A DNA stretch of 64,000 bases from a virus. Under the pieces are notes generated by a model. That model had not been told where the DNA came from, searched no databases, and was given only the letters and a program-made list of their open reading frames with translations. Position 1 is the stretch's first letter. Each line of letters begins with the position of its first letter. The translations under genes and the position numbers were made by a program. The stretch covers positions 253 to 64,252 of the IMG/VR virus record IMGVR_UViG_3300029825_000749; one strand, given 5' to 3'. This document shows, in pieces, positions 9,283 to 39,331 of the stretch.

Positions 9283-9614
9283 TGAAAAAATTTATATGTA
9301 AAAGTTTTAATGAGGATACTTTACTCTGTAGAAATTGTAATAATTTTGCTAATTGTATTATATTTCCACAACTGGGAATGGATCTTGTTTGCAATAAGCA
9401 GGAGGAGTATGATAAAATACAGTGTGAGATGGAGAATGATTTAACAGTTTTTGAAAAATATTTAGAAACTGTTGATGACACCTTAAATCTTGTTTTAGCT
9501 TCAATCAATAGTAATGATGATTTAATTAAACACTTTAATGATTTAAACAGATTACTACAACAACATACAGTATTTTCTAATAATGTGAAAAATTTAAAGG
9601 AGTTATTGAGATGA
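9282..9614 (+). CDS. Hypothetical protein, Cys-rich N-terminus and coiled coil
   Basis: Overlapping start/stop operon packing. Confidence 0.55.
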   Translation: MKKFICKSFNEDTLLCRNCNNFANCIIFPQLGMDLVCNKQEEYDKIQCEMENDLTVFEKYLETVDDTLNLVLASINSNDDLIKHFNDLNRLLQQHTVFSNNVKNLKELLR

Positions 9615-9961
9615 ATCCTGAATTGAAATTTGATGAAGAATTTTATACATCTATAAAAATGGGTTTTAAGATCCAAACAATCAGGAATCATTTGAAAATA
9701 GGAATCTTGCCTGGAAAAAAATGTAATGCACTGTTTGTGAATAATAACTGTGATTATGTTGAGGATAAAAGATTATATTTAAAAATTAAGCATATTTCAT
9801 TGAAAAACTTTAAAGATTTAGATTTAGGGGATGTGTTACGGGAGAACACAACTACTGTTGAAGATTTAAAAGAAAATTTACTTAGAATTTACCCAGAATT
9901 AAACTCTGAGAGTATCATTTATTGTATAAATTTTCAGGTAATTAAATCTAAGGAAGTGTGA
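9611..9961 (+). CDS. ASCH-domain protein
   Basis: IKMGFKIQTIR (GxKxxxxR) and L..IYPEL...IIYCINF signature. Confidence 0.78.
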   Translation: MNPELKFDEEFYTSIKMGFKIQTIRNHLKIGILPGKKCNALFVNNNCDYVEDKRLYLKIKHISLKNFKDLDLGDVLRENTTTVEDLKENLLRIYPELNSESIIYCINFQVIKSKEV

Positions 9962-36727: not shown

Positions 36728-36839
36728 AAAAAAACAGATTCCCATTTAATATGAAAGATATACTACTAATTGAGAAAAATAAAAATGTTCGAAATTAGAG
36801 TTAAATTATCCTAAAAATTGGTATAGATGTTTTTTCATC

Positions 36840-37190
36840 AATTTTTTTACTTCCAGGTAAGACACATTGTTTACTTTACCATTTTGTAAATATTTCCATA
36901 CTTTGATTAAGACTTTTTCCTCTCAATTGTTCAATAGAAAAAAATTTTCGAAAAAAATGTAAGTTTTTGCTTGTTTCATGGATATTATCAATGAAAGTTT
37001 TATTCCAAAAAGTACAAATGAGGATCCTTCATAAGATTGAGTGCATATATAATTATTTCAATAGGTATAATTTCAAGATTTCTACATAATTTTATTTTTT
37101 CTTAAATAGGACATTTTTAATGAGAGTGTAACAATCTCTCATTATTTTCCCTATGGTAAATTGAGCAGTTACACGCTGGTTTACCTAACA
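36840..37190 (-). pseudogene. Decayed Prim-Pol fragment homologous to the 4041..6842 primase
   Basis: 36840-37020 reads HLYF/WNKTFIDNIHETSKNLHF...LRGKSLNQSMEIFTKW*SKQCVLPGS versus primase aa 127-182; one frameshift and one stop; weaker similarity out to about 37190. Confidence 0.88.
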
Positions 37191-37395
37191 TTTTATCACC
37201 TAAAAAAAAAATAAATAAATTTATTTGAAAAAATAGAAGATATTTTTGAGTTTGAGGAGGGGAGTTTACCCCCCCTCTTTCTAAATTCTTCAATGTAACC
37301 TTTTAAGGTTTAATTCCTTAAGGTTGCTAAAAAACCCCATATATTTTATTTAAATTCATATACAATCTGGTCATGTTATAAAACAAAAAAATTGT

Positions 37396-37480
37396 GTGAG
37401 TATATCCAAGTCTGGTCAAAGGGTGCAGGTTTAGATCCTGTTGCTTTAGTGCTTCGTAGGTTCGAATCCTACTGCTTATA
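37396..37480 (+). tRNA. trnL: tRNA-Leu (TAG)
   Basis: Acceptor GTGAGTA/TGCTTAT; anticodon arm GCAGG-TTTAGAT-CCTGT; long variable arm; T arm GTAGG-TTCGAAT-CCTAC. Confidence 0.88.
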
Positions 37481-37483
37481 TCA

Positions 37484-37553
37484 CCACAGATGTCAGTTCA
37501 AATCTGGCTTAAGTAATACGTTGCTTGATAGTATAATCTGGTGATTACAGTGG
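37484..37553 (+). ncRNA. Circularly permuted tRNA-like RNA (T arm, closed acceptor stem, D arm)
   Basis: CCAC-AGAT-[GTCAG TTCAAAT CTGGC]-TTAAGTA-A-TACG-T-TGCTTGA-TA-[GTAT AATCTGGTGA TTAC]-A-GTGG. Confidence 0.65.
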
Positions 37554-37925
37554 ACAATTCATACTCCCCTTATTAGCTCGAGACAATGATAAGGGAGCTA
37601 TATGGTTGTAAATAAATTCAAATGTTTCCTCTCATGCTGAGTTTAAATCTCAGGGGAAACTATTTTTATATCAAATCTCCCGTTCTTTATGGAAAATGTA
37701 TAATGGAAAGGCATACATTAAGGGGGAATCATTTATTTTTTAGATTTCCCTATTTCCTCATACATTTAAATAAGCGATTAATAATCATATGGTATTGTAT
37801 GCCCTCTAATAATTTAAACTATTTATGCTGGGTTTGGGGGCGATAGCTCCCAGCTACCACTTTAAAATTTAGTAAATAATTTCATGAAAAAGAGTAAATT
37901 GGTAAATATTTATACTCTTTTCAAA

Positions 37926-37996
37926 GGATTTATAGTGTAATGGTAACATAGAGGATTCCAAACCCTTTAATGTCAGTTCGATTCTGACTAAGTCCA
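37926..37996 (+). tRNA. trnW: tRNA-Trp (CCA), intronless
   Basis: GGATTTA/TAAGTCC acceptor; loop TTCCAAA; T arm GTCAG-TTCGATT-CTGAC. Confidence 0.88.
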
Positions 37997-38202
37997 TTTT
38001 TTTCAAATATTCGATAATTCTGAATAGTTCAGTTGTAAACTATTAGTTGACAACTTAATTTTATCACAAAGTGGTAAAGTAAAATACCACAAAATAGTAA
38101 AGTGATTTACCCGAAAATAGTCCAGTAAAAAAAATCTTCAAACAAAATTTTAAGTAAATAAAGCACGTATGAATTCTAAAAAGTTATTTAAAAACTAAAT
38201 AG

Positions 38203-38229
38203 GGTTTATTAAGGATTCCTTAATAAACC
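38203..38229. promoter_or_regulatory. Perfect 12-bp inverted repeat upstream of the XRE gene (operator candidate)
   Basis: GGTTTATTAAGG-ATT-CCTTAATAAACC, ending about 20 nt before ATG 38251. Confidence 0.55.
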
Positions 38230-38250
38230 TCATGAAGAGATATAAAAAAC

Positions 38251-38622
38251 ATGTTTAATAATCAACATATCACACAACGATTAAAAAAACTAAGAAACCA
38301 ATACAACATCACCATCAAAGAATTATCTCAATACTTACAATTAACTCCTAAAGAAATAAGAGAATTAGAAAATGGTGAAAAAACATTAACAATAAGCATC
38401 ATGGACAAACTATGTAACCTTTATGGTTGCAGTGAAGAATACTTACTATGCCAAAACAATTTCTATGATCCCCACCATTTCATTCATAGTAAAAACGAGT
38501 TAAAAGATTTAGGTGCGATTGCAGCAATGAACACTATAATAAGCAACATACAATTCCTTGATAAAGCATACAATGATTTTAAAAGTAATCTTATAAAAGA
38601 ATTAGAAAAGAATGATGACTAA
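38251..38622 (+). CDS. XRE/Cro-C1 HTH transcription regulator
   Basis: LKKLRNQYNITIKELSQYLQLTPKEIRELENGEK. Confidence 0.88.
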   Translation: MFNNQHITQRLKKLRNQYNITIKELSQYLQLTPKEIRELENGEKTLTISIMDKLCNLYGCSEEYLLCQNNFYDPHHFIHSKNELKDLGAIAAMNTIISNIQFLDKAYNDFKSNLIKELEKNDD

Positions 38623-38800
38623 TAGTTTAGAAGCAGAATATTATTTTGGAATCAAAACAGTAATAGAAGACACTACTACTTTTGATAATTACTGGAGAAA
38701 TGTAAATGCTCATTATTTATTCAACAAATACTACACCCACTTTAAAAAGGTAAGTCATAAATCAGAACACCAATTTTATAAACAATTTCAACCACCCTAA
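38612..38800 (+). CDS. Small hypothetical protein
   Basis: Overlaps the XRE stop. Confidence 0.4.
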   Translation: MMTNSLEAEYYFGIKTVIEDTTTFDNYWRNVNAHYLFNKYYTHFKKVSHKSEHQFYKQFQPP

Positions 38801-38925
38801 AAAAAAGTATGTTGCTATGAACACATTTTGGACACTTAACATTTTAACCACACTTTATTCCTTAAATCAAATTCTAAGTAAGTTAAACCATTTTGAATGA
38901 CCATATTTTTATACATATTATATGA

Positions 38926-39000
38926 GCTATTATAACACAATTAAGTTAGTGCAATCCCTGCGTAAGGGATAGGTTGTAGGTTCGAGTCCTGCTAATAGTT
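38926..39000 (+). tRNA. trnT: tRNA-Thr (CGT), degenerate or possibly pseudo
   Basis: GCTATTA/TAATAGT acceptor, ATCCC-TGCGTAA-GGGAT arm, canonical T arm; but G33, no D-loop GG, and A10-C25 mismatch. Confidence 0.65.
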
Positions 39001-39059
39001 TTTTAAATACACTTAAAAAAGTGTAATGAAAACATGAAAATTTTAAATACACTGAAAAG

Positions 39060-39260
39060 ATGATGAATTTATTACAAAATCTTGAAACAATTCCTGCTGA
39101 CTATGGGAAAATTCAGGGCAAAAAGGATATTGAAAAATTTAGGAAGAATATAATAAACACGACAGATGAAGAGGAGTTGAGAGAGGAATATGTTGAGAAA
39201 ATTAGGAGAATTGAATTAGAAAAATCTATACTGCTAAGAGATTTAGATGAATTCTTCTAA
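39060..39260 (+). CDS. Small charged protein ending in a PIP-box-like LDEFF
   Basis: 66 aa; C-terminus ILLRDLDEFF. Confidence 0.5.
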   Translation: MMNLLQNLETIPADYGKIQGKKDIEKFRKNIINTTDEEELREEYVEKIRRIELEKSILLRDLDEFF

Positions 39261-39331
39261 GGAGAATTAAAAATAGAAAATCTAAAGTTAGTTTAGTATG
39301 GACAACTAAAAAAAGGAGTTGATGAGAAAGT

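What the first reader, a model, noticed from the sequence alone, without database searches (positions are those of the whole stretch)
37484..37553. Circularly permuted tRNA-like RNA with a UACG-capped acceptor stem
Directly behind tRNA-Leu, a tRNA 3' half (CCAC, T arm, TTAAGTA-A) precedes its matching 5' half (TGCTTGA, T8-A9, D arm with GG, GTGG). The acceptor stem pairs 7/7 (two G-U) plus A-T and is closed by UACG; CCAC/GTGG form the anticodon-stem base; no anticodon loop is evident. The order matches permuted tRNA genes (Thermofilum, red algae) and, as I recall, the tRNA-mimic domain of bacterial YrlA Y RNAs. I found no bulge-helix-bulge, so a tRNA mimic or decoy (for example against anticodon nucleases) released by tRNA-Leu 3' processing is my leading inference. 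tRNAscan would probably miss it.
Basis: partly seen in the sequence, partly recalled or inferred. Interest (0 to 1): 0.8.

Follow-up and report, generated by a model that had tools for sequence, protein, structure and literature searches.

The report
Back-to-front tRNA look-alike behind tRNA-Leu
A virus of a methane-producing archaeon carries, right behind its leucine tRNA gene, a complete tRNA body with its two halves in swapped order and no anticodon loop; it cannot decode, and it is either a tRNA mimic or a leftover of tRNA-gene shuffling.

Summary
Window 37484-37553 holds a tRNA 3' half, a 5-nt linker and the matching 5' half. When the halves are swapped and given a generic anticodon loop, ARAGORN calls a normal cloverleaf. 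This is the only such place in four related viral genomes (about 815,000 junctions tried).

The window is a tailed provirus of a pseudomurein methanogen (PCNA, XPF, XPD, pseudomurein-binding repeat).

It is not a permuted tRNA gene: no bulge-helix-bulge forms at the open end, and no combination of flanking bases gives a usable anticodon loop. It is not a YrlA Y RNA: no hit to Rfam RF02553, no Ro60 gene and no Ro-binding motif. This scan has noted many permuted tRNA look-alikes in bacterial phages, mostly beside DUF7873 or Ro60. This one has neither partner.

One RNA-library contig covers exactly 37295-37573, so tRNA-Leu and the element are probably co-transcribed.

The sister lineage keeps only the first 20 nt after its own tRNA, because a 240-bp deletion removed the rest. 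Other relatives lack the whole tRNA island.

My verdict is a real, non-decoding, permuted tRNA body. Functional tRNA mimic or processing module (about 0.42) and neutral rearrangement scar (about 0.40) are nearly even.

The parts
37396..37480 (+). tRNA-Leu(UAG), a type II tRNA; its discriminator A37480 lies 3 nt before the element
   Evidence: ARAGORN and Rfam RF00005 at 43.7 bits. In strain X7, 37401 T>C and 37477 T>C both turn G.U pairs of its acceptor stem into G-C.
37484..37516 (+). tRNA 3' half: CCAC (3' strand of the anticodon stem), variable AGAT, T arm GTCAG-TTCAAAT-CTGGC, acceptor 3' strand TTAAGTA and discriminator A
   Evidence: Sequence and the ARAGORN cloverleaf after rearrangement. 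Most similar to the 3' part of the virus's own tRNA-Trp, 21 of 24 aligned bases.
37517..37521 (+). 5-nt linker TACGT that caps the acceptor stem; T37521 can pair with A37516
   Evidence: The loop is polymorphic: 37517 T>C in strain X7.
37522..37553 (+). tRNA 5' half: acceptor 5' strand TGCTTGA, U8 A9, D arm (GTAT / AATCTGGTGA / TTAC), A26 and GTGG
   Evidence: RNAfold prefers an alternative D hairpin, TAATC-TGGT-GATTA.
37554..37609 (+). Long hairpin (domain B) that directly abuts GTGG: ACAAU..CUCCCC..UUAU / AUAA..GGGAG..GUUGU
   Evidence: RNAfold of 37481-37680. Absent from G003-type relatives.
37624..37667 (+). Domain C. A 7-bp stem GTTTCCT/GGGAAAC encloses a 6-nt linker and a T-arm-like hairpin CTGAG-TTTAAAT-CTCAG, giving the shape of a tRNA top half. 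T5 at 37663-67 is the likely archaeal terminator.
   Evidence: repeat D3: AGTTCAAATCT / AGTTTAAATCT. The terminator role is inferred.
37295..37573 (+). Extent of the single contig from RNA library X15. It has 0 mismatches and spans the leader, tRNA-Leu and the element.
   Evidence: read laying, record 8. No other virus-matching piece from that library lies within 37150-38150; its other six laid pieces are low-identity fragments on the A/T-rich stretch 37198-37245.
37445..37503 (+). Block shared at 80% identity with G003-type relatives: the T arm and 3' end of the tRNA, then the first 20 nt of the element up to TTCAAAT

Best explanation
The element is a tRNA-derived, circularly permuted tRNA body that cannot decode. 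It forms the head of a roughly 190-nt structured trailer (37481-37667) transcribed together with tRNA-Leu(UAG) in a provirus of a pseudomurein methanogen. The element presents an intact acceptor/T-arm stack (7 + 5 bp, canonical T loop, A73) together with a D arm bearing G18G19, so host tRNA enzymes should treat it as a tRNA. By inference, four steps follow. (1) tRNase Z cuts after A37480 of tRNA-Leu, which sets the element's 5' end at U37481. (2) RNase P and tRNase Z can cut on either side of the 5-nt cap, before T37522 and after A37516. (3) The CCA-adding enzyme can then extend A37516. (4) The product is a two-piece, anticodon-less tRNA look-alike. It would act either as a tRNA mimic that binds a tRNA-recognising host or viral factor, or as a processing handle for the downstream RNA. 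Shown here: the sequence architecture, its uniqueness, probable co-transcription, and an age predating the split from the sister island. Inferred: all processing steps and any function.
For: The architecture and its uniqueness rest. All tertiary-contact bases of a tRNA core are intact, including the A15-U48 Levitt pair. Its stems are as good as those of the three bona fide tRNAs of the same virus. Both open ends are flush with the 4-bp stem, and the 5' end lies 3 nt after the tRNA-Leu discriminator. The junction of a tRNA 3' end with CCAC..TTCAAAT is shared with an island whose noncoding DNA is about 20% diverged, so the arrangement is not brand new. All seven differences seen inside the element are neutral to the structure. 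Strain X7 contributes 37489 in the variable loop, 37510 T>C turning G6.U67 into G-C, and 37517 in the cap. The stub contributes two changes in the variable loop and two transitions in the T stem that still pair. One RNA-library contig covers 37295-37573 and no other virus-matching piece from that library lies in the kilobase laid. There is precedent: M. smegmatis YrlA has the same arm order and a 7-bp capped acceptor stem, is cut by RNase P and receives CCA in vivo (PMC4201824). Earlier scan notes report permuted tRNA look-alikes as recurrent RNAs in bacterial phages, some inside tRNA clusters. Those notes are unchecked leads.
Against: No homologue was found anywhere other than near-identical strains. 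The sister lineage lost everything after the T loop, and other relatives lack the island altogether, so the element is dispensable there. No partner protein was found: no Ro60, and no DUF7873 among the 56 ORFs scanned. The seven neutral differences are too few to be significant, roughly P = 0.003-0.03 under crude assumptions, and some may have arisen in the dead stub lineage. The folding z-score is -0.82. A rival fold has almost equal energy. The RNA evidence is one low-depth contig (3.3x), which cannot show ends or processing.
Confidence: 0.42

Rival explanations
1. Neutral rearrangement scar. A tRNA gene was duplicated in tandem with a 5-nt spacer, or a unit-length piece of such an array was captured. 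The outer halves were then lost, leaving a 3' half and a 5' half from the same tRNA. It is transcribed only because it lies in the tRNA-Leu trailer, and it does nothing.
For: This island is a zone of tRNA-gene turnover. The sister island carries a degenerate type II tRNA-like gene (only 21.6 bits, to tRNA-Sec) followed by a truncated stub. L024 has deleted that gene and its neighbour. Homology between the islands begins inside the conserved T arm, as expected for recombination between tRNA genes. A D-arm-like fragment, TACAATCTGGTCAT, lies upstream of tRNA-Leu. The element exists in only one virus lineage and has no partner gene. The YrlA authors note that dimeric tRNAs mimic this arm order (PMC4201824). 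Its three G-U pairs and two mismatches are also what mild decay would produce.
Against: This origin needs two deletions, each flush to within 1 nt of the anticodon stem. No remnant of an anticodon loop lies on either side. No relative with intact tandem tRNAs was found. The arrangement is older than about 20% noncoding divergence, yet every stem and every tertiary-contact base is still intact. All observed substitutions spare the structure.
Confidence: 0.4
2. True permuted tRNA gene. The precursor's ends pair into a bulge-helix-bulge, the host splicing endonuclease and RtcB circularise it, and RNase P and tRNase Z open the acceptor stem to give a decoding tRNA.
For: The 3' half lies upstream of the 5' half on one strand. 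The 5-nt intervening sequence is within the known range of 1-85 nt (PMC3218864). The host is an archaeon, so EndA and RtcB are available (plus established knowledge).
Against: No BHB can form between leader and trailer next to CCAC/GTGG, even with a relaxed definition. Distant BHB-like hits occur at the chance level, 21 observed against 23.9 in shuffles. No mix of natural flanking bases gives a loop with both U33 and a purine at position 37. The leader is the folded tRNA-Leu, which leaves only 3 free nt. Euryarchaeal alpha4/alpha2 endonucleases accept only the canonical BHB (PMC4090602). No joined form was seen in the RNA contig.
Confidence: 0.04
3. The cloverleaf does not form. Instead ATCACCA (37480-86, starting with the tRNA-Leu discriminator) pairs with TGGTGAT (37539-45), and CTACTG (37469-74) pairs with CAGTGG (37548-53). 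This gives a three-way junction that competes with tRNA-Leu folding and so modulates its 3' maturation.
For: This is the RNAfold minimum-energy structure once flanks are included, at -44.2 kcal/mol against -43.0 for the enforced cloverleaf. The 7-bp helix is perfect and longer than CCAC/GTGG.
Against: The X7 change 37489 G>A breaks the GAU/AUC extension of this helix but is neutral in the cloverleaf. The pairing consumes G18G19 and would have to unfold the T arm of a good tRNA-Leu. Such complementarity is common between tRNA-derived sequences. It is not exclusive of the mimic or scar readings.
Confidence: 0.1
4. YrlA-type Y RNA that tethers a Ro60 (Rsr) ring to an effector.
For: It has the same order of T arm, loop-capped 7-bp acceptor stem and D arm as YrlA (PMC4201824).
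Against: There is no match to RF02553 at E <= 10 in the whole virus. There is no TROVE-domain gene. No GNCGAAN0-1G motif and no Ro-binding helix flank the 4-bp stem. The host is an archaeon; to my knowledge Ro60 has not been described in archaea, and I could not test this here.
Confidence: 0.01

Closest known systems
tRNA-like domain of YrlA Y RNAs (Rfam RF02553; Chen et al. 2014, PMC4201824), especially M. smegmatis YrlA
   Same: The arm order is variable region, T arm, loop-capped acceptor stem, D arm, with the RNA ends where the anticodon arm would be. The acceptor stem is 7 bp. [quoted passage not shown]
   Different: It has no Ro-binding helix or motif, no Ro60 gene and no covariance-model match. 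It is an archaeal virus element. Its 5' end is set by an upstream tRNA gene. Only a 4-bp closing stem is present.
Permuted tRNA genes of Cyanidioschyzon merolae and Thermofilum pendens (Soma et al. 2007; Chan et al. 2011, PMC3218864)
   Same: The 3' half lies upstream of the matching 5' half on one strand, with a short intervening sequence and an archaeal setting.
   Different: Known cases are complete tRNAs with an anticodon, and a BHB at the termini allows circularisation. Their junctions lie in loops, such as 59/60. Here the whole anticodon loop is missing and no BHB exists.
Permuted tRNA-like modules in bacterial phage RNAs beside DUF7873 or Ro60-like genes
   Same: A permuted tRNA body without an anticodon loop, sometimes inside phage tRNA clusters, embedded in a longer structured RNA that ends at a terminator.
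   Different: Those RNAs are about 360-400 nt, usually carry two modules, and follow a DUF7873 gene. Here there is one module, no DUF7873 among 56 scanned ORFs, and an archaeal virus. The scan's word index shows no shared sequence.
tRNA-like processing signals such as the element upstream of Haloferax volcanii 5S rRNA cut by tRNase Z, and mascRNA of MALAT1 (recalled from memory, not checked here)
   Same: A tRNA-shaped, non-decoding structure in a longer transcript that recruits tRNA end-processing enzymes.
   Different: Those elements are in normal arm order and define the end of a known functional RNA. No such neighbouring RNA is established here.

Membership tests
Permuted tRNA gene | 3' half upstream of the matching 5' half on the same strand, with a short intervening sequence | tested here: met
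   The intervening sequence is 5 nt.
Permuted tRNA gene | Bulge-helix-bulge formed by leader and trailer at the junction | tested here: not met
   Strict and relaxed BHB scans found none next to CCAC/GTGG. Distant hits are at the chance level.
Permuted tRNA gene | The joined product has a normal 7-nt anticodon loop (U33, purine 37) and an anticodon | tested here: not met
   No combination of trailer and leader bases gives such a loop.
Permuted tRNA gene | Circular RNA intermediate or joined mature form | tested here: inconclusive
   The one RNA library shows no joints, but it is held as contigs at 3.3x depth.
YrlA / bacterial Y RNA | Arm order of T arm, capped acceptor stem, D arm | tested here: met
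   against the description in PMC4201824.
YrlA / bacterial Y RNA | Match to the family covariance model RF02553 | tested here: not met
   No match at E <= 10 in the region or in the whole virus.
YrlA / bacterial Y RNA | Ro60/Rsr (TROVE) gene nearby | tested here: not met
   PF05731 is absent from the 69-kb record, while the control genomes ring. The host genome could not be searched.
YrlA / bacterial Y RNA | Ro-binding helix with the conserved GNCGAAN0-1G motif | tested here: not met
   The motif is absent on both strands of 37281-37720. The closing stem is only 4 bp.
DUF7873-associated double tRNA-mimic RNA (scan-internal) | Lies just after a DUF7873 gene and carries two permuted modules | tested here: not met
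   No DUF7873 in 56 ORFs scanned with Pfam. The permutation scan finds a single module.
Canonical tRNA (RF00005) | Cloverleaf in normal order with an anticodon arm | tested here: not met
   Not called by ARAGORN or by Rfam at E <= 10.

The most novel reading that the evidence does not exclude
This is the first tRNA-mimic RNA of an archaeal virus. A Ro-independent, YrlA-topology tRNA body is made from the trailer of a viral tRNA-Leu. [quoted passage not shown] That product binds or titrates a tRNA-recognising host factor, such as a defence or a modification/processing enzyme, during infection of a methanogen.
Probability: 0.25. Interest if true: 0.75.

Novelty: new variant of a known kind. Interest (0 to 1): 0.45.

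Why it matters
If the element is functional, tRNA mimicry with the inside-out YrlA topology would extend from bacteria and their phages to archaeal viruses. It would do so without Ro60, and it would show a simple route to such mimics from tandem tRNA genes. It would also give a handle on tRNA-directed virus-host conflict in methanogens, for which almost nothing is known. If it is a scar, it still documents how tRNA genes in methanogen viruses recombine, decay and move as an island between structural gene modules. It also shows that permuted tRNA look-alikes can arise without function, which is a caution when reading the many similar calls in phage genomes.

Tried and rejected
1. The search for relatives of the element gave nothing useful.
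- The phage collection gave no blastn match.
- Four exact-pattern scans of viral contigs found nothing (and the protein-based ones below).
- The genome-contig pattern scan and protein scan both gave 0.
- The metagenome scan with a degenerate 20-mer gave 12 hits, all chance.

2. Protein-anchored relatives gave three outcomes.
- L002, L045 and L046 lack the island.
- L003, L004 and L025-L031 have the 20-nt stub.
- L024 has a larger deletion, and L044 is identical to the window.
Covariation analysis was therefore impossible.

3. An att-site reading was rejected. The integrase-like gene lies at the end of the record, about 30 kb away, and the element sits inside a contiguous virus.

4. tRNA-Leu as an intron of a split tRNA was rejected. 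No GTGG partner lies upstream, and the D-arm-like fragment at 37361-74 has only 4/7 acceptor complementarity (and inspection).

5. A C/D-box sRNA in 37583-37653 was rejected. The C-box-like ATGATAA lacks the second GA, and there is no Rfam hit.

6. The long-range BHB candidates (37597/37350 and 37662/37314) were rejected as chance.

7. The host genome could not be reached, so the host tRNA set, EndA type and Ro60 status were not tested.

Full report
**What the window is.**
- The window is bases 253-64252 of a 69,309-bp IMG/VR provirus record that is rated complete. It has about 31% G+C.
- It encodes a tailed-virus morphogenesis set: terminase, portal, prohead protease, SU10-type capsid protein, tape measure and baseplate J.
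- It also carries archaeal hallmark genes: PCNA, an ERCC4/XPF nuclease and an XPD-like helicase.
- The rest of the record adds a protein with pseudomurein-binding repeats, an HNH endonuclease and a weak tyrosine-integrase match near the record end.
- The host is therefore a pseudomurein methanogen of the Methanobacteriales type.
- Near-identical DNA occurs in sludge, fermentation, wastewater and soil metagenomes from about a dozen studies. It also occurs as a 70,222-bp ENA contig that is identical over the region of interest.

**The observation.**
- ARAGORN and Rfam find three tRNA genes: Leu(UAG) at 37396-37480, Trp(CCA) at 37926-37996 and Thr(CGU) at 38926-39000. They find nothing at 37484-37553, even at E <= 10.
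- I tested it by rearrangement. For every position on both strands of the genome I took 33 nt, skipped 5 nt, took 32 nt, swapped the two pieces around a generic anticodon loop, and ran ARAGORN at its default threshold. The only position called a tRNA was 37484 on the + strand.
- A flexible version allowed spans of 62-87 nt and required only a 4-of-5 closing stem. It covered this virus and three related viral records, about 815,000 junction candidates in 237 kb on both strands. It again hit only this element.
- The resulting cloverleaf has these features:
  - a 7-bp acceptor stem with two G-U pairs;
  - a 3-bp D stem plus T.T;
  - a 5-bp T stem with loop TTCAAAT;
  - a 4-bp anticodon-type stem topped by A.A.
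- All the usual tertiary-contact bases are present: U8, A14, A15-U48, G18G19, A21, G53-C61, T54 T55 C56 and A58.
- Its stems are no worse than those of the three real tRNAs of this virus. For example, tRNA-Trp has an A.C mismatch in its anticodon stem.

**Why it is not a permuted tRNA gene.**
- Known permuted tRNA genes are complete tRNAs whose leader and trailer form a bulge-helix-bulge. The precursor is circularised there and then opened at the acceptor stem (PMC3218864).
- Here only UCA (3 nt) separates the tRNA-Leu discriminator from CCAC.
- No BHB, strict or relaxed, can be drawn next to CCAC/GTGG.
- BHB-like pairings further away occur as often as in shuffled sequence: 21 observed against 23.9 expected.
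- No mixture of natural flanking bases yields a loop with both U33 and a purine at position 37 (and inspection).
- Euryarchaeal splicing endonucleases accept only the canonical BHB (PMC4090602).
- The RNA contig shows no joined form.

**Why it is not a YrlA Y RNA.**
- The arm order is indeed that of YrlA: variable region, T arm, capped acceptor stem, D arm (PMC4201824).
- However, the Rfam model RF02553 finds nothing in the virus at E <= 10.
- There is no TROVE/Ro60 gene.
- There is no GNCGAAN0-1G motif and no long Ro-binding helix.
- Earlier notes of this scan describe many permuted tRNA look-alikes in bacterial phages, mostly following a DUF7873 gene or a Ro60-like gene.
- None of the 56 ORFs I scanned with Pfam is DUF7873. 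The permutation scan finds one module here, not two.

**Expression.**
- One RNA-seq library (X15) holds a single 279-nt contig that equals 37295-37573 without a mismatch.
- Its other six laid pieces are low-identity fragments on the A/T-rich stretch 37198-37245. No other virus-matching piece from X15 lies within 37150-38150.
- This suggests a precursor that spans the leader, tRNA-Leu and the element. At 3.3x depth and as a contig, it cannot show ends, strand or processing.
- The trailer 37481-37667 folds into three domains:
  - the permuted tRNA body;
  - a long hairpin, 37554-37609, that abuts GTGG;
  - a third domain, 37624-37660, in which a 7-bp stem encloses a T-arm-like hairpin (CTGAG-TTTAAAT-CTCAG), followed by T5.
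- The third domain has the shape of a tRNA top half placed in front of a likely terminator.

**Relatives.**
- The tRNAs lie in a 2.6-kb island between tail-hub genes.
- Relatives L002, L045 and L046 have the flanking genes but no island.
- A second lineage (G003 type; L003, L004, L025-L031) has a related island between the terminase and portal genes. That island holds:
  - a degenerate type II tRNA-like gene, which scores 21.6 bits to tRNA-Sec and is not called by ARAGORN;
  - then TC(C/A)-CCAC-GAAT-GTTGG-TTCAAAT;
  - then, directly, a promoter-like block that in the window lies 240 bp further on, at about 37746.
- Because the stub ends inside an unpaired T-arm strand, that lineage has suffered a deletion. 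The window has not gained an insertion.
- The placement of the 3' half directly behind a tRNA is therefore older than the split of the two islands. Their noncoding DNA differs by about 20%.
- L024 has deleted the tRNA-like gene, the stub and the next gene.
- The element is thus old but dispensable, in a region where tRNA genes recombine and decay. Homology between the islands starts inside the conserved T arm. A D-arm-like fragment lies upstream of tRNA-Leu.

**Signs of constraint.**
- A second strain in run X7 differs at three places in the element:
  - 37489, in the variable loop;
  - 37510, where T>C turns G6.U67 into G-C;
  - 37517, in the cap, changing UACG to CACG.
- The stub differs from the window at two variable-loop bases and at two T-stem transitions that would still pair.
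- All seven differences spare the cloverleaf. This is suggestive but far from significant, and some may belong to the dead stub lineage.
- The folding energy is not better than that of shuffles (z = -0.82).
- A rival three-way junction uses a perfect 7-bp helix, ATCACCA/TGGTGAT, and has almost the same energy. The 37489 change disfavours its extension.

**Reading.**
- The element is a non-decoding, permuted tRNA body in the tRNA-Leu trailer.
[quoted passage not shown] This matches what was shown for M. smegmatis YrlA, which has the same 7-bp capped stem.
- I put a functional mimic or processing module at about 0.42 and a neutral scar of tandem tRNA duplication and loss at about 0.40. A regulatory alternative fold is at about 0.10, a true permuted tRNA at about 0.04, and a Y RNA at about 0.01.
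- A decoy for anticodon nucleases is unlikely, because there is no anticodon loop.
- The decisive data are small-RNA ends, circular RT-PCR, enzyme assays, structure probing, and a covariance-model scan of digester metagenomes.

Noticed in passing
L004:3582-3697 (also L003 and L025-L031): A type II tRNA-like gene with a good acceptor stem and T arm, but a 14-nt 'anticodon loop' (TACAATGGTTGYAT) and a very long variable region. ARAGORN does not call it, and it scores only 21.6 bits, to tRNA-Sec. It may be a decaying tRNA or an unusual one.
   Followed up: partly
window 37624-37667: A hairpin shaped like a tRNA top half: a 7-bp stem GTTTCCT/GGGAAAC encloses a T-arm-like hairpin CTGAG-TTTAAAT-CTCAG, followed by T5. 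Its loop region is 10/11 identical to the element's T arm.
   Followed up: partly
window 37361-37374: TACAATCTGGTCAT, just upstream of tRNA-Leu, is 12/14 identical to the element's D arm (37532-45) and shares TCTGGTCA with the tRNA-Leu D loop. It may be another tRNA 5'-half fragment, or part of the promoter region.
   Followed up: partly
window 36750-39330 versus L004:3480-5550: The island of tRNAs, an XRE-type HTH gene and tRNA-Thr(CGU) sits between tail-hub genes in this virus but between terminase and portal in the G003-type relatives. It is absent from L002, L045 and L046. It behaves as a mobile cassette whose homology starts inside a tRNA T arm.
   Followed up: partly
L024:2530-2600: In GCA_043956595.1 a deletion joins the first 6 nt of the tRNA-like gene (GTGGAT) to the end of the DUF4325-like gene. 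It removes the tRNA-like gene and the stub.
   Followed up: yes
G000 64213-65244, 66324-67148 and 67677-68840 (L033): A protein with pseudomurein-binding repeats, an HNH endonuclease, and a weak tyrosine-integrase match (E = 1e-4, below the Pfam cutoff) near the right end of the provirus record.
   Followed up: partly
window 37926-37996: The viral tRNA-Trp(CCA) has an A.C mismatch at the bottom of its anticodon stem. None of the three viral tRNAs encodes CCA.
   Followed up: no
window 9611-9961: A small ORF with an ASCH (PUA-like, RNA-binding-type) domain, E = 3e-4, just at the Pfam cutoff.
   Followed up: no
window 37478 (run X7 loose end): A DNA contig in X7 matches tRNA-Leu up to 37478 and then continues with unrelated sequence (CATTTCCGGATTCACGG TTTTTT...). 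It is probably another genome's tRNA-Leu with the same T arm.
   Followed up: no
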